Below, piece by piece: positions 3,231 through 16,344 of a stretch of DNA of 64,000 bases; the stretch's first letter is position 1, and every line of letters starts with the position of its first letter. The translations under genes and the position numbers were made by a program. The DNA comes from Escherichia coli (GTDB lineage: Bacteria; Pseudomonadota; Gammaproteobacteria; Enterobacterales; Enterobacteriaceae), in the NCBI RefSeq assembly GCF_024298765.1, contig NZ_CP101210.1; one strand, 5' to 3'. The notes under the pieces were generated by a model. The model was not told the origin of the DNA. It saw only the letters and a list, made by a program, of their open reading frames with translations, and made no database searches.

Positions 3231-3619
3231 GCCGGATAGACTCCGTGTGGTAACTGAAAATGCGGTCCGTCTTTCAGGGTCTTCCAGTCGCCGCCCCATT
3301 CCACCGGAATATTCAGCTCCCGGCTGGCCTGTCTGAATGCTGCTGCGATTTTTTCGTACAGCGGCCATTCCCATGACACCTGGCTGCCGATATAAGCCAC
3401 AACATCCACGGCATGTCCCGTAAGGTGGCGGCTGTTCATGGTCTGGCTCTTACCTGTGGCCACAAGTTGCTTCTGGCGGTAACGGCTGCGCAACCCTTCG
3501 GTGATACCAAAATCCACTTCCGAAATTTCCAGTGCCCGTCGGGTCACTTTCACCAGATCAGGATTTACGCCCTGCAAATTCTTTTCGCTCCGGCTGCTGA
3601 ATTTAAATGTGTTGCTCAT
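3227..3619 (-). CDS. endolysin, peptidase M15-like (L-Ala-D-Glu / D-Ala-D-Ala peptidase type)
   Basis: 130 aa with SRHLTGHAVDV zinc-peptidase-like motif; sits between holin and spanins. Confidence 0.7.
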   Translation of the reverse strand: MSNTFKFSSRSEKNLQGVNPDLVKVTRRALEISEVDFGITEGLRSRYRQKQLVATGKSQTMNSRHLTGHAVDVVAYIGSQVSWEWPLYEKIAAAFRQASRELNIPVEWGGDWKTLKDGPHFQLPHGVYPA

Positions 3620-7650: not shown

Positions 7651-9402
7651 ATGATTCAGGACGCTTTTGTGCGCCAGCGTGCGCGACAACTTTACTGGCA
7701 GGGTTATCCGCCCGCAGAAATATCACGTCTGATGGGAATAAACCCGAACACGATTTATGCGTGGAAAAAACGCGACCAGTGGGATGAAACGCCACCCGTG
7801 CAGCGTGTCACGCAATCCATTGATGCGCGCCTCATCCAGCTTACTGAAAAACAGAATAAAACAGGCGGTGACTTCAAGGAAATAGACCTGCTGACACGGC
7901 AGCTTAAAAAGCTGCATGATGGCCAGCCGGATGTGATTGCCGCAGGAAAGAAAGGCCGGGCGAAAAAACTCAAAAATCATTTCACGCCGGAACAGATTGC
8001 CGCACTGCGGGAAAAAATCATCAGCAGGCTGGAGTGGCATCAGCGGGGCTGGTTTGACTCCCTGACCCTTTGCAGGGAAGCCGGGATACGTAACAGGATG
8101 ATCCTGAAATCCCGACAGATTGGGGCGACCTGGTATTTTGCACAGGAAGCACTGCTGATGGCGCTGCGTGACGATGTGGTGCAACCTTATCAGCGTAACC
8201 AGATTTTTTTGTCTGCGTCGCGTCGTCAGGCGTTCCAGTTTAAAAGCATTATTCAGAAGGCCGCGGCTGAAGTTGATGTGGAGCTGAAAGGGGGCGATAA
8301 AATCATCCTCTCCAACGGCGCAGAGCTGCATTTTCTCGGCACTTCTGCTGCGTCGGCACAGTCCTATACGGGCAATTTTTATTTTGATGAATTCTTCTGG
8401 GTCAGTCGCTTTGCTGAACTGCGCAAGGTGGCTGGCGCTATGGCAACCCTCAGCGGACTGCGGCGCACCTACTTCTCCACGCCATCCACCGAAACGCACG
8501 AGGCATACGCCTACTGGAACGGCGACCGCTGGAACGAGAAAAAGGCCACGCATAAACGCCAGCGTTTTTCTGTGGACTGGAAAACGCTGCATAACGGGCT
8601 TATCTGCCCTGACCGGACGTGGCGGCAAATTGTCACGCTGGAAGATGTGGTTAATCACGGCTGGAAACACACCGATATTGATGAAATTCGTGATGAAAAC
8701 ACCGAAGACGAGTTCCTCAATCTCTATATGTGTGAGTTTGTCCGCGAAGGGGAATCGGCATTTAACCTGAATATCCTGATTGGCTGTGGTGTTGACGGAT
8801 ACGACGACTGGAAAGACTGGAAACCTTTTGCTCCCCGCCCGATGGGGAATCGCCCGGTATGGATTGGGTATGACGCAAATGGCAGCAGTGGCAACGGCGA
8901 CAGCGGCGCTGTGTCCGTGGTGGTTCCTCCGGCTGTTCCTGGTGGCCGTTTTCGAACGGTGGAGACGCGACGCGTTCAGGGGCTGGAGTTTGAAGAACAG
9001 GCCAGAGTCATTGAAGAGTTCACGTGTCGCTACAACGTGGAACACATCGGCATTGATGTGACGGGCGGGAACGGGGAGGCTGTTTATCAGATAGTGAAAC
9101 GGTTTTTCCCTGCCGCTATTCCGTACACCTTCACGCTGTCATCAAAACGGTCGCTGGTACTGAAAATGCTGCAAATAATGCGTGCAGGGCGGTGGGAATA
9201 CGATCGCGCCGAACGCGAGCTGGTCGCGGCCTTTAACGCCGTGCGTAAGGTGAAAACACCGGGCGGCTTTATCACTTACGAAACGGACCGCGCGAGGGGG
9301 ATCAGCCACGGCGACCTTGCGTGGGCAACCATGCTTGCTGTCATTAACGAACCAATTGGCGGCGAAGGAGAAAACGAGCGTTTCACGGTTATGGAGTTCT
9401 GA
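7651..9402 (+). CDS. terminase large (ATPase) subunit (gpP-like)
   Basis: 583 aa, divergent from O, followed by portal with 1-nt overlap, as in P2 P-Q. Confidence 0.85.
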   Translation: MIQDAFVRQRARQLYWQGYPPAEISRLMGINPNTIYAWKKRDQWDETPPVQRVTQSIDARLIQLTEKQNKTGGDFKEIDLLTRQLKKLHDGQPDVIAAGKKGRAKKLKNHFTPEQIAALREKIISRLEWHQRGWFDSLTLCREAGIRNRMILKSRQIGATWYFAQEALLMALRDDVVQPYQRNQIFLSASRRQAFQFKSIIQKAAAEVDVELKGGDKIILSNGAELHFLGTSAASAQSYTGNFYFDEFFWVSRFAELRKVAGAMATLSGLRRTYFSTPSTETHEAYAYWNGDRWNEKKATHKRQRFSVDWKTLHNGLICPDRTWRQIVTLEDVVNHGWKHTDIDEIRDENTEDEFLNLYMCEFVREGESAFNLNILIGCGVDGYDDWKDWKPFAPRPMGNRPVWIGYDANGSSGNGDSGAVSVVVPPAVPGGRFRTVETRRVQGLEFEEQARVIEEFTCRYNVEHIGIDVTGGNGEAVYQIVKRFFPAAIPYTFTLSSKRSLVLKMLQIMRAGRWEYDRAERELVAAFNAVRKVKTPGGFITYETDRARGISHGDLAWATMLAVINEPIGGEGENERFTVMEF

Positions 9403-10448
9403 TGAGCAGAAAAAATAAAAAAGTGCGCATGAGTTCACGCATTGATCTCGCTGATGCGCTCAGGAAAGAATCATCGCTCAGTGCATTCACATTTGATGGT
9501 CCTTATCGCCTGACCGGGCATGACCTGCTGGACAATATGTACTGTGCTGATAACGGGCGGTGGTATGAAACCCCGGTGGACTGGTACGGTCTGGCAAGAG
9601 CCGCCCGGCAAACGTCCTGGCATCAGTCTGCGCTTTACTTTAAGCGCAATGTATTACTCGGTTGCTACATCCCGCACCCGCTGCTTTCCCGGCAGGATTT
9701 CTCGGCGCTGGCGCTGGACTGGTTTGTGTTCGGTAACGCATTCCTTGAGCTTCGGAGCAATATGCTCGGCGAACCGCTTAAATTACGGCACGCCCTGGCG
9801 AAATACATGCGACGCGGAAGCGATCTTGAATCATGGTGGTATGTGCAGGATGGCAAGGACGCGTTCCAGTTTCGCCCTGGCAAAGTGTGCCACCTGATGA
9901 ATCCGGATATTAACCAGGAAATCTACGGCATGCCGGAATATCTTGGCGCATTACTCTCGGCCAGCCTTTCTCATTCGGCGGACATGTTCAGAAAACTGTA
10001 CTACGACAACGGATCCCACGCCGGGTGCATCATCTACATCGGTGCAGCGCAGGTAAACCGCGAAAGCATGGACTCCCTGAAAGAAACGTTACAGGGTGCG
10101 CGTGGTGGTGGTGCATTTAAAAACGTGCTCATTCATGCGCCCAACGGGGGCAAAGAAGGGGTGCAAATTTTGCCGTTCCAGCAGATCACCGCAAAAGATG
10201 AGTTCATGAATGTTAAGGCGGCATCCCGTGATGATGTGCTGGCTGCGCACCGCGTTCCGCCGCAACTGATGGGGGCGATGCCGGGCGAAAAAAGTGCGTT
10301 TGGTGATGTGGAGAAGGCCGCGCGGGTTTACGCAATTAACGAGCTGATGCCCGTCATGGAGGCCATGAAGCACATCAATGACTGGCTTGGCGAAGAGGTG
10401 ATCCGCTTTAACCCTTACGCACTGTTAGACACCCAGCCCACATCCTGA
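9402..10448 (+). CDS. portal protein (gpQ-like)
   Basis: 348 aa, size and position match P2 gpQ; last morphogenesis gene before the cos/cargo region. Confidence 0.85.
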   Translation: MSRKNKKVRMSSRIDLADALRKESSLSAFTFDGPYRLTGHDLLDNMYCADNGRWYETPVDWYGLARAARQTSWHQSALYFKRNVLLGCYIPHPLLSRQDFSALALDWFVFGNAFLELRSNMLGEPLKLRHALAKYMRRGSDLESWWYVQDGKDAFQFRPGKVCHLMNPDINQEIYGMPEYLGALLSASLSHSADMFRKLYYDNGSHAGCIIYIGAAQVNRESMDSLKETLQGARGGGAFKNVLIHAPNGGKEGVQILPFQQITAKDEFMNVKAASRDDVLAAHRVPPQLMGAMPGEKSAFGDVEKAARVYAINELMPVMEAMKHINDWLGEEVIRFNPYALLDTQPTS

Positions 10449-10872
10449 CGCGCTTCGCTTGTCTGCTGCTTCGCCGGGGCATAAAAAATTTATGCCCCGA
10501 CTCTCCAGCTCCTGTATCAGTCAGATAATTTCACGACGCTTTCCTGCTGATTGCCATCATCGACAGTCAGACTCTTACGCAATCCCACCGCGTTGACTGC
10601 ATGTTCTCGCCGTCTCAGTGCGATTTTGACGGCCTTACCTTTCACCCCATCAAATCAAAAGCCCTCACGTCTTTTTCACGCTCAGCGTGAGAAATACAGC
10701 CATTCTGTTGTGTCGCTGCGACATCGTTCAGGGGATGCTATTTACCCCCTGAAACGCGGGCTGTTCCCCCGTCACCTGCGCGCAGAAAAAATGCGTTTTT
10801 TTGTGCACGCACGGATCCTTGACGGATCCAGCCACCATGCGGGCCGGAAGGGCAAAAAGTCGTTCAAAAAAA

Positions 10873-10899
10873 TTGTGCAAATTTGTGCACTATTGTGCA
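10873..10899 (+). promoter_or_regulatory. three direct TTGTGCA repeats at 10-bp spacing with a nearby TATAGT; candidate operator/promoter of the cargo operon
   Basis: TTGTGCA at about 10873, 10883 and 10893 (a fourth copy near 10801); TATAGT at about 10904; about 80 nt upstream of the cargo ATG. Confidence 0.35.
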
Positions 10900-10978
10900 T
10901 TTGTATAGTGAAAAAAATATAGCAGAAAGTATACTTAGCGCCTTGTGGGCTACGTTAACTTTGCAGGAACATTTGGAA

Positions 10979-12358
10979 ATGAAAAAAATCAATAAAGAAG
11001 ATTCTAAAAGAACCTTTTTACGTGGATGGTTGCGATTTCTTCGTAGCGTTGAGAGAGCTAAGAAAAAAAAGCCTGCGCAAGAGAAAAATGGTAGTCTTCG
11101 TTTTTCCGATGAAACAACTCCTGTCCAAAACCAAGTCGCTACGTTCATTGAAAATATATCGATTATAAAAGAGTATGACTCATCAATTCTTCGTCGTGAC
11201 GCAGAGAAGATATTAATACCTAAATATTTTGACTTATATGACAATCCAGAGAAATCTCTGCTATTTATTAGTGCAGCCACAAAATTAATTGCAAGAGGTA
11301 AATGGAAATCATATATTTTTGATTACAAGAAAAACAAAAAACACTGTCTTGGTCTTGAGTGTCTATTAGGTGTTGCTCTTACAGCAGCAAGGCAAAGTAA
11401 TATAAATTTCAAAGATACGATGATTCAGATTAATGGTATCTACCCTAAAGATGAACAGTATCTTGAAATTATCAGGGATGTCGGGCTTGTAAAAGAGATT
11501 AGTAATGCTGCACCAGGTAAAGTTCTGGACTCTACTGAAGCATCGAAAAAAGCGAATCCGAAGAAACGAATCTTCTCTGCTGATAGTATCGGAAAGGAGA
11601 ATGCTTCTGCCTTTGCCCATGACAGAAAAAATGTCACTGCTGAAAAATTTACCGCATACATAAACGAATGCTTAAATGATCATAATTTAAAACTTGTACA
11701 TGAGGCAGAAAAGCATTTAACTTCCTGCATGGGGGAACTCCTTGATAATGCGGAGCGGCATTGTGGGTTAGAGCAACGCCCACGCTGGTATTTGAGAGGT
11801 TTTGTTAATAATAACGTACGAAACCCCATATGTGAGTTGGCTGTTTTCAATTTTGGGAAAACTATCAGCGAAACTTTTGATAATTTACCTGAGGATCATT
11901 TTTCATTAAGTCAACAAGTTAATCCATACATAAATAAGCATATTAAGAAAAAGGGTATGTTTAAGGAAGGATTAACAACAGTAGCGGCCTTGCAAGGGCG
12001 GGTGAGTTGTAAAAACGAGAAAGAAACTGACAGTTCTGGCACCGGAACAATTGAATTATTGAAGTTATTTCAAGATATGCATGATAATCTTAAAAAAATG
12101 GGAAGAGATATTAAAGGTGGGATAAAAATGACTTTAATATCTGGTAGTACTCATATTAACTTTGATGGATCATATAAATTAAAGCAAAGGTTGGTTAATG
12201 ACGAGGAAAGTGACATTTTTACTTACCCTTTTAATGATGTAGGGCTTGAATCTGAACCGGATCGCAACTATCTTAAGCGTATGAAGGATGCTCGATTTCC
12301 TGGAGTTATGATCAATATTCGTTTTCCTCTACCAGAAAACGCCACCCAGCGAACTTGA
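10979..12358 (+). CDS. cargo gene 1: GHKL-type ATPase / anti-sigma-factor-kinase-like protein, 459 aa from ATG 10979
   Basis: N-box-like ELLDNAERHCG, possible degenerate G1 (FNFGKT) and G2 (SSGTGT) boxes; AT-rich; AGGAA 8 nt before ATG; the track start at 10883 is a TTG. Confidence 0.6.
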   Translation: MKKINKEDSKRTFLRGWLRFLRSVERAKKKKPAQEKNGSLRFSDETTPVQNQVATFIENISIIKEYDSSILRRDAEKILIPKYFDLYDNPEKSLLFISAATKLIARGKWKSYIFDYKKNKKHCLGLECLLGVALTAARQSNINFKDTMIQINGIYPKDEQYLEIIRDVGLVKEISNAAPGKVLDSTEASKKANPKKRIFSADSIGKENASAFAHDRKNVTAEKFTAYINECLNDHNLKLVHEAEKHLTSCMGELLDNAERHCGLEQRPRWYLRGFVNNNVRNPICELAVFNFGKTISETFDNLPEDHFSLSQQVNPYINKHIKKKGMFKEGLTTVAALQGRVSCKNEKETDSSGTGTIELLKLFQDMHDNLKKMGRDIKGGIKMTLISGSTHINFDGSYKLKQRLVNDEESDIFTYPFNDVGLESEPDRNYLKRMKDARFPGVMINIRFPLPENATQRT

Positions 12359-12368
12359 GGACAGGTAC

Positions 12369-12713
12369 ATGAAAATGGCTGACATCACCATAGATTTCAA
12401 TAAGTTAGTAAAAGATAGTAACAAGAAACTTTTTGCTGGACGTTCTAATGGGCGCCAGGCCTATGATTACTTTAATATAGGGAAATTTTGCACAACCAGT
12501 AATGATAGATTATATCTATTGATCCCCAAGGGAATTGTTGTATCAAGCTCATACTTTCTAGGTATGCTTGAAACGGTTTTGCCGAAATTTTCTTCGCCTA
12601 GCGAATTTTATAGTCGCACTGTACTTGATGGTCGTGAATATAAAGAAGGTATGCTTTCTGAATTAGATAGAGCTGTAAGGAGAGGCTTACATAAAAATGT
12701 TCCCTTCTTTTAA
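12369..12713 (+). CDS. cargo gene 2: small STAS-like (anti-sigma-factor-antagonist-like) protein, 114 aa
   Basis: GAGGA 8 nt before ATG, overlapping the stop of gene 1; segment LLIPKGIVVSSSYFLGMLETV recalls the SSSF-type STAS-like signature. Confidence 0.55.
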   Translation: MKMADITIDFNKLVKDSNKKLFAGRSNGRQAYDYFNIGKFCTTSNDRLYLLIPKGIVVSSSYFLGMLETVLPKFSSPSEFYSRTVLDGREYKEGMLSELDRAVRRGLHKNVPFF

Positions 12714-13506
12714 AAATATTTTTCAAATCAAAATGACAGCGCTGTCTGTCATTTTTTTTATATTCCCCGCAGCTTGCTCTGTGACAGATTTTTCCAATAA
12801 AGAAAACATTGAATGTAATGAGTCACTTTATCCAAACACGCCTTTTTATATTTCCGATTCAGGACTTAGTGGTATATCATCACCGTTTTTGTTATCCGGA
12901 AACCCGAATGATGGCTTGATGTTTTGTGAAAAGGCAAACGACACCTTTCATAAGTTATCTCTGGCAAGGGATAACAAAAAAGATTTATTTACTAATTATT
13001 TCAAAGATGTTCCAAATTCCTATGATATATATAATATTGTAAAGGTTCCGGAAAATGGTCCAGAGTGGATTTCTATTGGCATCTCTTTATTTGCTTTAGT
13101 TTCATCCTTTGTTATTCCTTGTGTTCAACATAGAAAAGAACGTAAAGAAGCTATTAATGAAGGGTATTGGGTAAGAGAAGTAATTATGCCTAAAATTAAT
13201 GGGTTGGCATTCGATGTTGTGCAAAGTTTTAAAAACTCCATGGCATTATCAGAAGAGGAGTTTCTTAGTGTATTCAGTAATACTCTTTTACCAAAACTAG
13301 GAGAGTTACGGGATTCATTATATTTGTTTAATAGTTTTCCAGAATTAAATGCAGATATTGAAAATCTAGAAAGTATTTGTGACTCCTTGGAGGAAGAAGT
13401 TTCCAATCATATAGACTCGCCTAATGAAATAAGAATTTCTGATATATCAATGTTTCATTCCAAATTAATACAGAAATTAATTTTACTTCATAAGAAGATA
13501 GGTTGA
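12697..13506 (+). CDS. cargo gene 3: membrane protein, candidate effector (N-terminal signal/anchor, one internal TM, acidic C-terminal domain)
   Basis: Overlaps gene 2 by 17 nt; hydrophobic N-terminus TALSVIFFIFPAAC and TM WISIGISLFALVSSFVIPCV; AT-rich. Confidence 0.6.
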   Translation: MFPSFKNIFQIKMTALSVIFFIFPAACSVTDFSNKENIECNESLYPNTPFYISDSGLSGISSPFLLSGNPNDGLMFCEKANDTFHKLSLARDNKKDLFTNYFKDVPNSYDIYNIVKVPENGPEWISIGISLFALVSSFVIPCVQHRKERKEAINEGYWVREVIMPKINGLAFDVVQSFKNSMALSEEEFLSVFSNTLLPKLGELRDSLYLFNSFPELNADIENLESICDSLEEEVSNHIDSPNEIRISDISMFHSKLIQKLILLHKKIG

Positions 13507-13551
13507 TTTTCAAGGCCTCCTTATTCCTAGGGCGGCCTTAGCTCTATATTT

Positions 13552-16344
13552 CTATCGTGTTCGATGCAATAAACTGATTTTTTTGCGAGCATGTTTAGTG
13601 GTTTCACTGATTCTCTGTGCGTGCTCTGCGTCGCGGATGGCGCGCAGCATGTCAGAAAGTACGGTAACGGGTGTTTTCATGGTGTTCTGGTCTTGCTGAA
13701 GTGTGGATGCCAGGCGTGCGGCGGCTTCAGGGTCTGATGCCTCTAGTTGTTCCAGATAGCTGGCGACCGGGTTATGGCGGATCTCCGTGCTGCTTACGCC
13801 GTGATTACGACTCAGGCGTTGCCAGAGCTGCGTGATTCGGCTGTCCGGGCGGGTATCCTGTTTGCGTACAATTTCAAATCCCTGCGGTGCAATGATGCTG
13901 CCGCCAACGTACAGACTGCCGCCTCGTAACAGGTGCTGCATCTGCTGTTCACCGATATGCAGGCCGAGAGATTCAGCAGACTCCCGCCATTCTTTAGCGA
14001 GTAACTCGTGGTTATCAGGCAAAGGCTGTGGCTGTTTGCGGCTCTGTGTCCAGTTCTGCATTTCATCACTGCTGTTTTTTGCCTGTTTGTCACGCAGCGA
14101 ACGCATCAGTGCCCGGCGTTCGTGCCGTTTCAGTGAGCGCATCCATTCATTCACGTCAACGCCTTCAGGAAGCCGCGGCCACGGTGCTGGCCGTTCTTCC
14201 GGCTGTTCTGTCCCGTTGTTGTCCGTTTCCTGTACACGGGGACAGTTATTGCCACGAGTCCAAGGGGCGGCAGGGCCGCCCTGAAGGTCAAAACCATTTT
14301 CGCGGGCGCTGTCTTCCGTTTCCGGTTTACGTCTTACCAGTTTCCAGTTATCCGGATGCGTGCACACACGGGAGGATTCCCCGATGAGTGGTGACCAGAT
14401 CCCGTAAATCTGTACGCTCTGTTCGCCGTAATCATTCAGCTCATCTGCGAGGTCGTAGGCGGTGCGAATCAGGTAGTCTTTGCGTGGAACAAGTACGCCG
14501 CCCTGTTTTTCAATGTAGGTGGCAAAACACCCGGCATCGGCGGCAGCGAGTACCGCATCCATTGCGTCATCTTTCAGTCGTTGCGGGCCTTCCGGGTTGC
14601 GTGCCATCTGGCTGGCAAGGCGGCGCAGTTCACGCCACACCTGACGGGAGGGGATGCCAAAGAACTGGAACTGGCGGACCCGATGAAGGCGCGCCCAGCC
14701 GATGGCGCGCTCCACACTCTCGGCCATTGATTTTCCGGTTTCGTGGTCAACGCGTGGCTTGCCCGTTTTCGGGTCGATGCCATCCACGGCGCGGCTGTCC
14801 AGGTTCTTTCCGATGTAGGTCGCGATATAGCTGGTTGGTGTGCCTTTTGAGCCGTCGACATACTCCGCCTTAAAGCGCGGAGTAATATCATTGCCCAGCT
14901 CGTGGCGGTCTTCCTGAATGGCAATATCGCGGGTGATGGCCACGATGCTGTCGATTTCTTCCGGATGAGCAAAGACCATCATATGCCAGTGCACGGTGCC
15001 GTCATGGTGAGGCTCCACCGTGCGGATGCCATACCAGCGAAGACCGTCGCGGTTCAGTTTTTTGCGGACCGCCGCAAAAAACGTGTTAACCAGGTAATCG
15101 CTGGAGTCGCGCATGGTGGCCCCGTTCCATTTGGGATTCGGATGACCGTTCTCTGTTGTGGCGTGGTATTTTGACGGGCAGGTGACAGTCAGAAACACCG
15201 CTTTGTCGCCACGGGCTTCGGCCAGAAGTTCCAGCCCCTTCATGGTGGCCATCATTTCTGCCTTACGGTGAACCGGGTTACTTACTCCCGCGTAATACAC
15301 CGTCTCGAGATCAATCGTGAACCCGTCTTCGTTTTCCAGCATGAAACTTTTCAGGAAATCGCGTGTTTTCTCGCGCTGTGCGCGAAACTCGCTTAACGCG
15401 TCCTGGCTCAAATAGGGCGATGTTTTTCTGGAAACCAGACAGGCGGCGCGGAGTTGTTCTTCTCTCCACTCGCAACGTAACAGCCACAGTTTGCGTTTCC
15501 ACCATTCCGCACAGGTCAGGCGAAGGATTGCGCCCGGCAGCAGTTCTGTGTCCGGTTCGTTCCTCCGGTCTTTGTCTGTTGTCAGTGCGTCATAATGCGG
15601 AGGCATGGCGTGCAAGTGTAACGCCATGCGGGCCAGCATCTGATACGCCTTCAGCGTTACATCCATGGTCAGCTCGCCATCGGTCGCGCCAAAACCATCG
15701 CAGAGTTTTTCGAAGGTGCTGCTGAACATCGCCGCCGTCATGGTGGCCAGCGTCTGTATCTGGTGTTTGTTGAGTTGCGGCAGGTAAAGCAAATCGTCCA
15801 GGCGTTCACGTCCGGCAAGGGACCGATAACCCGGTGTCAGCCAACGGCTGTCGGTGCGGTCCAGACGTACGAATATTTTGCGCAGGGTTCCGCGCGCGTA
15901 GCGTTCAGCCTGCCAGCTCTTTTTGCCTTTCTGACGATCGGATTCCTGTTTTTTGCGCAGGAAAGAGAGGTGGCGGCTCAGAGGTTCACGCAGATAAACG
16001 GGAAGCACCTTCAGTGTGGCAAAAGCACGGGCCACCGGGTCTTGTTCTGTTGCCTGACGCTTGCTGATGATGCTTTGTGCCAGCTTTTCACGCTGTCCGG
16101 CTTCCTCAAGGGATGCCATGAGTTTTTTACCCACGGTGGATTGTGCGAAAAAGGCTTCCTCCTTCGCTTCCTGTTCTTTCCGGGCCTTTTTGTCCGCCTC
16201 AAGGTAGTAACGGATGGCGCGTTGCAGCTCGGTTTCAGTTTCCTGCCTGCGCTCCGTAAATCTGTCCGGATCAATGGCTGGCCGTGGTTCATTCCAGCTC
16301 CATGCAAACTCACTCATGGCTGGTATCCCGTCACGCGCTGCCAC
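13552..16344 (-). CDS. replication initiation endonuclease (P2 gpA-like, rolling-circle HUH type)
   Basis: 930 aa with HWHMMVFAH HUH-type motif; position between early genes and cargo as P2 A. Confidence 0.8.
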   Translation of the reverse strand: MAARDGIPAMSEFAWSWNEPRPAIDPDRFTERRQETETELQRAIRYYLEADKKARKEQEAKEEAFFAQSTVGKKLMASLEEAGQREKLAQSIISKRQATEQDPVARAFATLKVLPVYLREPLSRHLSFLRKKQESDRQKGKKSWQAERYARGTLRKIFVRLDRTDSRWLTPGYRSLAGRERLDDLLYLPQLNKHQIQTLATMTAAMFSSTFEKLCDGFGATDGELTMDVTLKAYQMLARMALHLHAMPPHYDALTTDKDRRNEPDTELLPGAILRLTCAEWWKRKLWLLRCEWREEQLRAACLVSRKTSPYLSQDALSEFRAQREKTRDFLKSFMLENEDGFTIDLETVYYAGVSNPVHRKAEMMATMKGLELLAEARGDKAVFLTVTCPSKYHATTENGHPNPKWNGATMRDSSDYLVNTFFAAVRKKLNRDGLRWYGIRTVEPHHDGTVHWHMMVFAHPEEIDSIVAITRDIAIQEDRHELGNDITPRFKAEYVDGSKGTPTSYIATYIGKNLDSRAVDGIDPKTGKPRVDHETGKSMAESVERAIGWARLHRVRQFQFFGIPSRQVWRELRRLASQMARNPEGPQRLKDDAMDAVLAAADAGCFATYIEKQGGVLVPRKDYLIRTAYDLADELNDYGEQSVQIYGIWSPLIGESSRVCTHPDNWKLVRRKPETEDSARENGFDLQGGPAAPWTRGNNCPRVQETDNNGTEQPEERPAPWPRLPEGVDVNEWMRSLKRHERRALMRSLRDKQAKNSSDEMQNWTQSRKQPQPLPDNHELLAKEWRESAESLGLHIGEQQMQHLLRGGSLYVGGSIIAPQGFEIVRKQDTRPDSRITQLWQRLSRNHGVSSTEIRHNPVASYLEQLEASDPEAAARLASTLQQDQNTMKTPVTVLSDMLRAIRDAEHAQRISETTKHARKKISLLHRTR

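What the first reader, a model, noticed from the sequence alone, without database searches (positions are those of the whole stretch)
12369..12713. Cargo gene 2: small STAS-like partner, translationally coupled to the ATPase gene
The 114-aa protein contains LLIPKGIVVSSSYFLGMLETV, which recalls the SSSF-type signature of STAS-like (anti-sigma-antagonist-like, DUF4325-type) domains; this is from memory of the family, not a search. Its GAGGA ribosome-binding site overlaps the stop of gene 1, implying coupled expression of a kinase/antagonist-like pair.
Basis: inference. Interest (0 to 1): 0.7.

Follow-up and report, generated by a model that had tools for sequence, protein, structure and literature searches.

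The report
STAS-like partner of prophage kinase
The 114-residue gene is real and encodes a divergent STAS-like (DUF4325-type) protein next to an anti-sigma-type kinase in a P2 prophage defence hotspot, a cassette already catalogued and resembling the characterised VapKSC system.

Summary
In detail: the ORF at 12369-12713 encodes 114 aa, carries the SSSYFLG motif, and has a GAGGA overlapping the gene 1 stop codon.

- No Pfam, NCBIfam or PADLOC model hits gene 2 directly.
- Its confident AlphaFold model (pLDDT 89) matches almost only "DUF4325 domain-containing" proteins in AFDB.
- Of its profile-detected relatives, 7-14 hit Pfam DUF4325.
- Ser61 lies at the N-terminus of helix 2, where SpoIIAA is phosphorylated.

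Rousset et al. 2022 already list this exact cassette as P2-hotspot system 19, "HATPase_c | DUF4325", apparently untested. Chambers et al. 2026 showed that VapK phosphorylates VapS, which I confirmed is DUF4325, releasing the toxin VapC.

So this is most likely a kinase/STAS switch controlling a membrane effector: a new variant of a known kind. Phosphorylation, binding and defence are inferred, not shown.

Two oddities: an invariant Asn replaces the G1-box Asp of the kinase, and a conserved hairpin plus U8 follows gene 2.

The parts
10908..10935 (+). Promoter-like site (GTGAAA-16-TATACT) upstream of gene 1. It is a candidate cassette promoter.
   Evidence: Consensus scan only. The number of sites found was not above chance.
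10979..12358 (+). Gene 1, 459 aa. It has a basic N-terminal helix (aa 6-28), an internal STAS domain (about aa 70-205) and a SpoIIAB-like GHKL (Bergerat-fold) kinase domain (about aa 216-452).
11735..11761 (+). N-box of the GHKL domain, E253-LLD-N257-AER-H261 (ExxxNAxxH).
   Evidence: E253, N257 and H261 are invariant in 53 homologues. hhalign places them in register with VapK E156/N160/H164.
11849..11863 (+). G1-box equivalent, N291-F-G293-K-T. An invariant Asn stands where GHKL proteins have Asp.
   Evidence: N291 and G293 are invariant. The stretch aligns with VapK D190-F-G-V-G.
12357..12361 (+). GAGGA Shine-Dalgarno sequence overlapping the gene 1 stop codon (TGA, 12356-12358).
   Evidence: Read directly from the sequence. 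TGAGG is conserved in four closely related cassettes.
12369..12713 (+). Gene 2, 114 aa (or 112 aa from ATG 12375). It is a single-domain, divergent DUF4325/STAS-like protein with a conserved C-terminal helix and tail.
12543..12551 (+). Codons for Ser59-Ser60-Ser61, the candidate phospho-acceptor at the start of helix 2.
   Evidence: The three serines are invariant in close homologues. S61 and G65 are conserved in at least 90% of 123 distant relatives. Helix 60-67 starts here in the model. S61 aligns to the D-S position of the STAS protein TM1081, and S60 aligns to VapS S48.
12697..13506 (+). Gene 3, 269 aa, the candidate effector. It has a lipoprotein-like signal peptide, a variable periplasmic segment, a TM helix (aa 122-145) and a conserved cytoplasmic C-terminal domain.
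   Evidence: Hydropathy analysis and alignments. There are 21 clusters, none with a Pfam domain, and they sit on the same contigs as homologues of genes 1 and 2.
12730..12763 (+). Perfect 10-bp hairpin (AAAATGACAG/CTGTCATTTT) running into a T8 tract, 17 nt after the gene 2 stop codon and inside the 5' end of gene 3. It looks like a terminator or attenuator.
   Evidence: It is conserved in three other cassettes, with one compensatory A-U to G-C change in Rahnella. A different 10-bp hairpin sits at the same place in L002.

Best explanation
Gene 2 encodes a small cytoplasmic STAS-like protein of the DUF4325 lineage. It is the dedicated partner of the gene 1 product, which is a STAS plus SpoIIAB-type GHKL serine-kinase-like protein. 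Together with gene 3, a membrane protein, they form a mobile three-gene cassette in the cos-proximal defence hotspot of P2-like prophages.

The most likely mechanism follows VapK-VapS-VapC and SpoIIAB-SpoIIAA.
1. In the resting lysogen, gene 2 protein holds the effector inactive. The effector is probably the conserved cytoplasmic domain of the gene 3 protein, and gene 2 may bind it through its conserved C-terminal helix and tail.
2. An infection-linked signal activates the gene 1 kinase.
3. The kinase phosphorylates Ser60/61 at the N-terminus of helix 2 of gene 2 protein.
4. That releases the membrane effector, which stops growth or kills the infected cell.

Shown here: gene reality, the folds, remote homology to DUF4325, conserved synteny, and the hotspot location. 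Inferred: binding, phosphorylation, the trigger, the effector role of gene 3, and anti-phage function.
For: Gene reality and family:
- 41 conserved clusters of gene 2.
- The fold is DUF4325-like (Foldseek AFDB50; top 50 hits nearly all DUF4325, TM 0.6-0.95).
- 7 of 123 relatives hit PF14213 at E<=1e-3 and 14 at E<=0.1, and no other family recurs.
- VapS is PF14213 (E 2.7e-17). It hits relatives P0189 and P0155 at E 4.5e-6 and 5.9e-4.

Phospho-acceptor:
- The Ser lies at the strand-to-helix-2 transition.
- The S-x-x-L-G spacing matches STAS proteins.

Kinase partner:
- Gene 1 is STAS plus a SpoIIAB-like GHKL domain, with an invariant ExxxNAxxH N-box and a GxG lid.

Cassette and context:
- The 460 + 113 + 260 aa cassette recurs in P2 hotspots of E. 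coli, Citrobacter and Rahnella, and outside phage in Aeromonas.
- In L010 the gene 1 and gene 2 homologues are kept with an unrelated third gene, which suggests a modular effector.
- The cassette lies between portal and gpA, the hotspot defined by Rousset 2022. That paper lists it as system 19, 'HATPase_c | DUF4325'.
- Cargo GC is 34.8% against 54-56% in the flanks.

Precedent: the VapKSC mechanism was shown experimentally (PMC13373217).
Against: - There is no direct Pfam, NCBIfam or PADLOC hit for any of the three proteins.
- Family profiles do not detect VapS or VapK above shuffled controls.
- The kinase G1-box Asp, which contacts adenine in GHKL proteins (established knowledge), is an invariant Asn. 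ATP-dependent kinase activity is therefore not assured.
- Gene 3 has no recognisable toxin domain, and no toxicity, binding or defence data exist.
- No complex prediction was possible with these tools.
Confidence: 0.6

Rival explanations
1. This would be a partner-switching regulator rather than an antitoxin-like switch. Gene 3 would be a membrane sensor, using its variable periplasmic domain, that signals to the gene 1-gene 2 pair. The output would be sequestration or release of some other host or phage factor by gene 1, as SpoIIAB/RsbW do with sigma factors.
For: The best structural match of gene 1 is an anti-sigma factor. The periplasmic part of gene 3 is hypervariable while its cytoplasmic domain is conserved, as expected for a sensor. 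Gene 3 has no toxin domain.
Against: No sigma factor or other target gene is present in the cassette. The cassette moves as a self-contained three-gene unit between unrelated contexts. In L010 the third gene is replaced by an unrelated protein, which is typical of effector swapping.
Confidence: 0.17
2. Gene 1 would be a pseudokinase, or would use a nucleotide other than ATP. Gene 2 would be bound but not phosphorylated, and the switch would be purely conformational or nucleotide-binding driven.
For: An invariant Asn291 replaces the G1-box Asp in all 53 homologues, and the second G1 glycine is Thr.
Against: The N-box Glu, Asn and His and the GxG lid are invariant, which argues for a catalytically competent Mg-nucleotide site. 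The Ser triplet of gene 2 is invariant.
Confidence: 0.15
3. This would be a CapK/CapS-type transcriptional controller, with gene 2 repressing transcription of gene 3 or prophage genes until it is phosphorylated.
For: The kinase architecture is the same, and CapKS precedes immune operons.
Against: CapS needs a C-terminal wHTH domain. Gene 2 is a single 114-aa domain with no HTH. Gene 3 overlaps gene 2, leaving no intervening promoter or operator.
Confidence: 0.05
4. The ORF would be a chance or non-functional reading frame.
For: No curated protein family matches it.
Against: It is conserved across genera with invariant motifs and constant length. The fold prediction is confident, and synteny is conserved.
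Confidence: 0.01

Closest known systems
P2-hotspot system 19, 'HATPase_c | DUF4325' (Rousset et al. 2022, Cell Host Microbe, Table S5B; PMC9122126)
   Same: It is the same cassette. The three listed protein sequences begin MKKINKEDSK..., MKMADITIDF... and MFPSFKNIF..., and differ from the window only by a few residues in protein 3. The table records 155 occurrences among 18,150 P2 loci, marks 'Protein 3' as the variable gene, and notes '1 TM in protein 3'. The RefSeq proteins WP_000723541, WP_000763711 and WP_001548207 appear in Table S5A.
   Different: The paper gives only a domain label. The cassette is not found in the tables of cloned and tested systems or in the main text. The internal STAS domain of gene 1, the Ser motif, the Asn in G1 and the hairpin are not described there.
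VapKSC (Chambers et al. 2026, EMBO J; PMC13373217)
   Same: It is a three-gene operon in the same order: a STAS-GHKL kinase, then a single-domain DUF4325 STAS protein of about 116 aa, then an effector. The STAS protein has a conserved Ser on helix 2 and a functional C-terminal helix. VapS is Pfam DUF4325. The system is associated with defence.
   Different: The third gene here is a membrane or lipoprotein-like protein, not a VapC PIN nuclease. Gene 1 is 459 aa with an extra basic N-terminal helix, against 302 aa for VapK. No profile-level sequence similarity to VapK or VapS is detectable. The G1 box has Asn where VapK has Asp. Whether ssDNA is sensed is unknown.
CapK/CapS (same paper)
   Same: The kinase combines STAS and GHKL domains, the substrate is a STAS-domain protein encoded immediately downstream, and both are found in immune loci.
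   Different: CapS carries a wHTH domain and is a transcriptional repressor, and gene 2 has none. CapK has an N-terminal HTH. CapKS regulates a separate downstream operon.
SpoIIAB-SpoIIAA and RsbW-RsbV partner switching
   Different: There is no sigma factor, and the kinase carries its own STAS domain. Gene 2 is only weakly similar to solved STAS folds (Z no higher than 3.2), and no Pfam STAS model matches it.

Membership tests
Pfam DUF4325 (PF14213, STAS-like) | Significant match of the protein to the PF14213 HMM | tested here: not met
   Gene 2 has no hit. None of its 38 close homologues has a hit.
Pfam DUF4325 (PF14213, STAS-like) | Homology by transitive or profile search to bona fide members | tested here: met
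   The A1 profile finds 122 relatives at E<=1e-3 in 1.84 billion proteins. Of the 123 sequences scanned, 7 hit PF14213 at E<=1e-3 and 14 at E<=0.1, and it is the only recurrent family. VapS, which is PF14213 at E 2.7e-17, hits P0189 at E 4.5e-6.
Pfam DUF4325 (PF14213, STAS-like) | Same fold as DUF4325 proteins | tested here: met
   Foldseek against AFDB50 gives 60 hits at E<=1e-3. The listed top 50 are almost all annotated DUF4325, with probability 1.00 and TM 0.5-0.95.
Canonical STAS / SpoIIAA (anti-sigma antagonist) | Match to STAS sequence models or to solved STAS proteins | tested here: inconclusive
   There is no Pfam STAS hit. The best PDB profile hit is the STAS protein TM1081, but only at E 0.36.
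Canonical STAS / SpoIIAA (anti-sigma antagonist) | Structural superposition on solved STAS domains | tested here: inconclusive
Canonical STAS / SpoIIAA (anti-sigma antagonist) | Conserved phosphorylatable Ser/Thr at the N-terminus of helix alpha-2 | tested here: met
   S59-61 are invariant. S61 is conserved in at least 90% of 123 relatives. Helix 60-67 begins there. The actual phosphorylation was not tested.
Canonical STAS / SpoIIAA (anti-sigma antagonist) | Adjacent cognate GHKL serine kinase | tested here: met
VapKSC toxin-antitoxin-like defence system | STAS-GHKL kinase followed by a small STAS protein | tested here: met
   The architecture is met by fold. Sequence profiles do not detect VapK or VapS.
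VapKSC toxin-antitoxin-like defence system | Third gene encodes a VapC-like PIN nuclease | tested here: not met
   Gene 3 has two hydrophobic segments and no Pfam-annotated relative. It has no PIN hit in NCBIfam, PHROGs or PADLOC.
VapKSC toxin-antitoxin-like defence system | Kinase phosphorylates the STAS Ser and releases the effector, with ssDNA as activator | not testable with these tools
   This needs biochemistry or complex prediction.
CapK/CapS regulators | The STAS protein carries a C-terminal wHTH DNA-binding domain | tested here: not met
   Gene 2 is a single 114-aa domain with no HTH in Pfam or in the model.
P2 cos-proximal defence-hotspot cargo | Variable, low-GC insert between portal gpQ and replication gpA of a P2-like prophage | tested here: met
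   The position is shown. The flanks occur in 1141 E. coli genomes and the cargo in 22. GC is 34.8% against 54-56%. The hotspot definition is given.
P2 cos-proximal defence-hotspot cargo | Demonstrated anti-phage activity | not testable with these tools
   The cassette was not found among the tested systems of Rousset 2022. It has no PADLOC model.

The most novel reading that the evidence does not exclude
The cassette would be a distinct kinase/STAS switch with three unusual properties. Its GHKL domain, with an invariant G1 Asn for Asp, would use a non-ATP nucleotide or respond to a signal other than ssDNA. It would gate a lipoprotein-like membrane effector with a hypervariable periplasmic face. 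And the dose of that effector would be set by a conserved intragenic terminator-like hairpin directly after the STAS gene. This would link periplasmic or envelope sensing of infection to a cytoplasmic phospho-switch.
Probability: 0.15. Interest if true: 0.6.

Novelty: new variant of a known kind. Interest (0 to 1): 0.4.

Why it matters
This is the 19th most common cargo of the P2 defence hotspot in E. coli and has no tested function.

If it works as proposed, the GHKL-kinase/STAS phospho-switch, so far shown for transcription (CapKS) and a PIN toxin (VapKSC), would also control a membrane effector. That would add a prophage-borne abortive-infection module.

The Asn-for-Asp change in the kinase could bear on nucleotide specificity in GHKL proteins. 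The hairpin after gene 2 could bear on how the ratio of STAS protein to effector is set.

The domain identification itself is not new.

Tried and rejected
Searches that gave nothing useful:
- Direct Pfam, NCBIfam and PADLOC scans of all three proteins gave nothing. PHROGs gave only weak unknown-function families.
- Pfam scans of every close homologue of gene 2 and gene 1 gave no STAS or DUF4325 hit. There was only one faint HATPase_c_2 hit, at E 0.013.
- A PDB sequence-profile search gave only TM1081 at E 0.36 for gene 2, and nothing for gene 1.
- Rfam found nothing relevant in 10300-13700.

Comparisons that were not significant:
- HMMs of the gene 1 and gene 2 families did not score VapK or VapS above 2000 shuffled decoys.
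- hhalign against single VapS and VapK sequences was not significant, but the alignments were in register.
- The upstream 333-aa neighbour of the distant relative P0104 (L008) is not BLAST-similar to gene 1.
- The third gene of L010 is not similar to gene 3.

Rejected ideas:
- The TTG start at 10883 for gene 1 is rejected, because homologues and RefSeq start at 10979.
- A CapS-like repressor role is rejected for lack of a wHTH domain.
- The chance-ORF reading is rejected on conservation.

Full report
**Observation.** The window matches E. coli WS1933D at 100% identity across 10400-13600. This region is a P2-like prophage.
- The portal gene runs 9402-10448 (+).
- The replication endonuclease gpA runs 13552-16344 (-).
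- Between them lies a 2.6-kb insert with 34.8% GC, against 54-56% in the flanks.
- The insert carries three same-strand genes:
  - Gene 1, 10979-12358, 459 aa.
  - Gene 2, 12369-12713, 114 aa.
  - Gene 3, 12697-13506, 269 aa.

- The peptide LLIPKGIVVSSSYFLGMLETV is present.
- GAGGA (12357-12361) overlaps the TGA of gene 1 and lies 7 nt before the ATG.
- RefSeq starts gene 2 two codons later, at 12375. That Met is the invariant one.
- The short gene 1-gene 2 junction is conserved, and the called genes overlap in two divergent cassettes.
- Coupling is therefore plausible but not demonstrated.

**Gene 2 is real.** A search of 5.8 billion proteins gives 41 clusters at 42-99% identity and 106-120 aa, in Enterobacterales and Aeromonas. 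All are annotated "hypothetical" with no Pfam domain. Their alignment shows invariant K19, LFAGR.NG (21-28), SSSY (59-62) and G65, plus a conserved C-terminal E..RA..RGL..N..FF.

**What gene 2 is.** Direct Pfam, NCBIfam and PADLOC scans are negative, for gene 2 and for every close homologue. Three independent lines nevertheless place it in the DUF4325 ("STAS-like") lineage.
1. **Fold.**
   - The AlphaFold2 model is confident (pLDDT 89.4, pTM 0.82).
   - Foldseek against AFDB50 returns 60 hits at E<=1e-3.
   - The listed top 50 are almost all "DUF4325 domain-containing protein", at 15-62% identity and TM 0.5-0.95.
2. **Profile search.**
   - A profile search of 1.84 billion representatives finds 122 relatives.
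   - Scanning each against Pfam, DUF4325 is the only family that recurs: 7 hits at E<=1e-3 and 14 at E<=0.1.
3. **Link to VapS.**
   - VapS is the experimentally characterised STAS protein of VapKSC. I took its sequence from the paper's supplement.
   - It is a clear PF14213 member (E 2.7e-17).
   - It hits several of those relatives directly (P0189 at E 4.5e-6).

Against canonical STAS the evidence is only suggestive.
- The best PDB profile hit is the anti-sigma antagonist TM1081, at E 0.36.

The functionally telling feature is the Ser triplet.
- In the model it sits at the transition into helix 60-67.
- S61 and G65 are conserved in at least 90% of the 123 distant relatives.
- S61 aligns with the D-S position of TM1081, with the STAS-typical S-x-x-L-G spacing.
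- hhalign puts S60 on VapS S48.
- These alignments are weak individually but consistent in register.

**The partner.** Gene 1 also has no family hit. Its model (pLDDT 83.6) resolves into a basic N-terminal helix, a STAS domain and a Bergerat-fold domain.
- Separately, for the internal domain, it gives RsbV 9.6, TM1442 9.1 and SpoIIAA 7.7.
- The N-box E253xxxN257AxxH261 and the lid G354xG356 are invariant in 53 homologues.

This is the STAS+GHKL architecture of CapK and VapK. One anomaly stands out: the G1 box reads N291-F-G-K-T, and the Asn is invariant where VapK and other GHKL proteins have Asp.

**Gene 3.**
- It has a lipoprotein-like signal peptide, with Cys27 conserved in at least 90% of homologues.
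- A poorly conserved periplasmic stretch follows.
- Next comes a TM helix (aa 122-145), followed by basic residues.
- Last is a well conserved cytoplasmic domain of about 120 aa.

**Context and mobility.**
- The same roughly 460 + 113 + 260 aa cassette sits between portal and gpA in other E. coli, Citrobacter and Rahnella P2-like prophages.
- It also sits in a non-phage chromosomal site in Aeromonas dhakensis.
- In a metagenomic relative, the gene 1 homologue (33% identity, E 6e-65) and the gene 2 homologue are kept, but the third gene is unrelated. That fits a sensor/switch pair with exchangeable effectors.
- In complete E. coli genomes the flanks occur in 1141 genomes and this cargo in 22.

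**Comparison with the literature.** The gpQ-gpA interval is the P2 defence hotspot of Rousset et al. 2022.
- Their Table S5B lists exactly these three proteins as system 19, "HATPase_c | DUF4325". It records 155 occurrences, a variable protein 3, and one TM in protein 3.
- The RefSeq accessions appear in Table S5A as "hypothetical + hypothetical + hypothetical".
- I found no sign that the cassette was cloned or tested.
- A P4-hotspot system with the same label has an N-terminus that aligns with the STAS region of gene 1 (E 0.004).

Chambers et al. 2026 supply the mechanistic precedent.
- CapK phosphorylates a conserved Ser of the STAS-wHTH repressor CapS on sensing ssDNA.
- In VapKSC, VapK phosphorylates the antitoxin-like VapS and releases the VapC toxin, giving phage protection.
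- An earlier PIN-domain survey had noted VapC genes coupled to DUF4325 genes.

**Mechanism proposed.** By analogy, gene 2 protein would keep the effector off. The effector is probably the cytoplasmic domain of gene 3. Gene 1, once activated, would phosphorylate Ser60/61 and release the effector, causing membrane-level growth arrest. Every step of this is inference.

The main alternatives are:
- Gene 3 is a sensor feeding a partner-switch with another target.
- Gene 1 is a non-canonical or pseudo-kinase, because of the Asn.
- The pair has a CapS-like repressor role. This is unlikely, because gene 2 has no wHTH.

**Side observation.** Seventeen nucleotides after the gene 2 stop codon, within gene 3, lies a perfect 10-bp hairpin running into a T8 tract (12730-12763).
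- It is retained in three cassettes whose gene 3 proteins are only 42-55% identical.
- One of them has a compensatory A-U to G-C change.
- A different 10-bp hairpin occupies the same position in a fourth cassette.
- It is absent in Aeromonas and in L010.
- It may attenuate gene 3 expression relative to genes 1 and 2, but with so few sequences the support is modest.

**Verdict.** The domain identity is already on record, and the class of mechanism was published in 2026. What remains new is the variant: a membrane third component, a longer kinase with Asn in G1, and the hairpin. All of these are untested.

Noticed in passing
window 12730-12763; L012, L013 and L014 at about 3533-3563; L002 6379-6403: A perfect 10-bp hairpin followed by a T8 tract sits just after the gene 2 stop codon, inside the signal-peptide coding region of gene 3. 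It is conserved in four cassettes, with one compensatory pair change in Rahnella, and a different hairpin occupies the same position in L002. It could be an attenuator or terminator setting the gene 2 to gene 3 ratio, it could occlude the internal ATG at 12733, or the T8 run could be a slippage site.
   Followed up: partly
window 11849-11863 (gene 1 aa 291-295): The G1 box of the GHKL domain reads N-F-G-K-T. The Asn is invariant in all 53 homologues, where GHKL ATPases and kinases, VapK included, have the adenine-contacting Asp. This may mean altered nucleotide use or a pseudokinase.
   Followed up: partly
window 10873-10899: There are three exact TTGTGCA repeats at 10-bp phasing (10873, 10883, 10893), with a fourth at 10801. 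They lie at the boundary between the conserved cos-proximal phage backbone and the cargo, just upstream of the promoter-like site for gene 1. They could be a regulator binding array.
   Followed up: no
window 12697-13506 (gene 3): The periplasmic segment (aa 28-120) is highly variable between homologues, apart from Cys27, Cys77 and the VPESGPEW motif. The cytoplasmic C-terminal domain is strongly conserved. This pattern resembles a diversifying outward-facing surface.
   Followed up: partly
L013 1-1284 (Rahnella P2-like hotspot): In this prophage the cassette shares the hotspot with a KAP-family NTPase gene immediately upstream, so two candidate defence modules are stacked.
   Followed up: no
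L006 (metagenomic contig, 9070 bp): The most distant close homologue of gene 2 (P0040, 42% identity) lies in a phage-like contig of many small genes, including a Pyr_excise gene and an R2K gene. It is preceded by genes of 306 and 175 aa rather than one 460-aa kinase gene. The partner may be split there, or may be a different protein.
   Followed up: no
window 12369 vs 12375: There are two in-frame start codons, each with its own plausible ribosome-binding site: GAGGA for 12369 and AGGT for 12375. RefSeq uses the second, and Rousset's table uses the first.
   Followed up: partly
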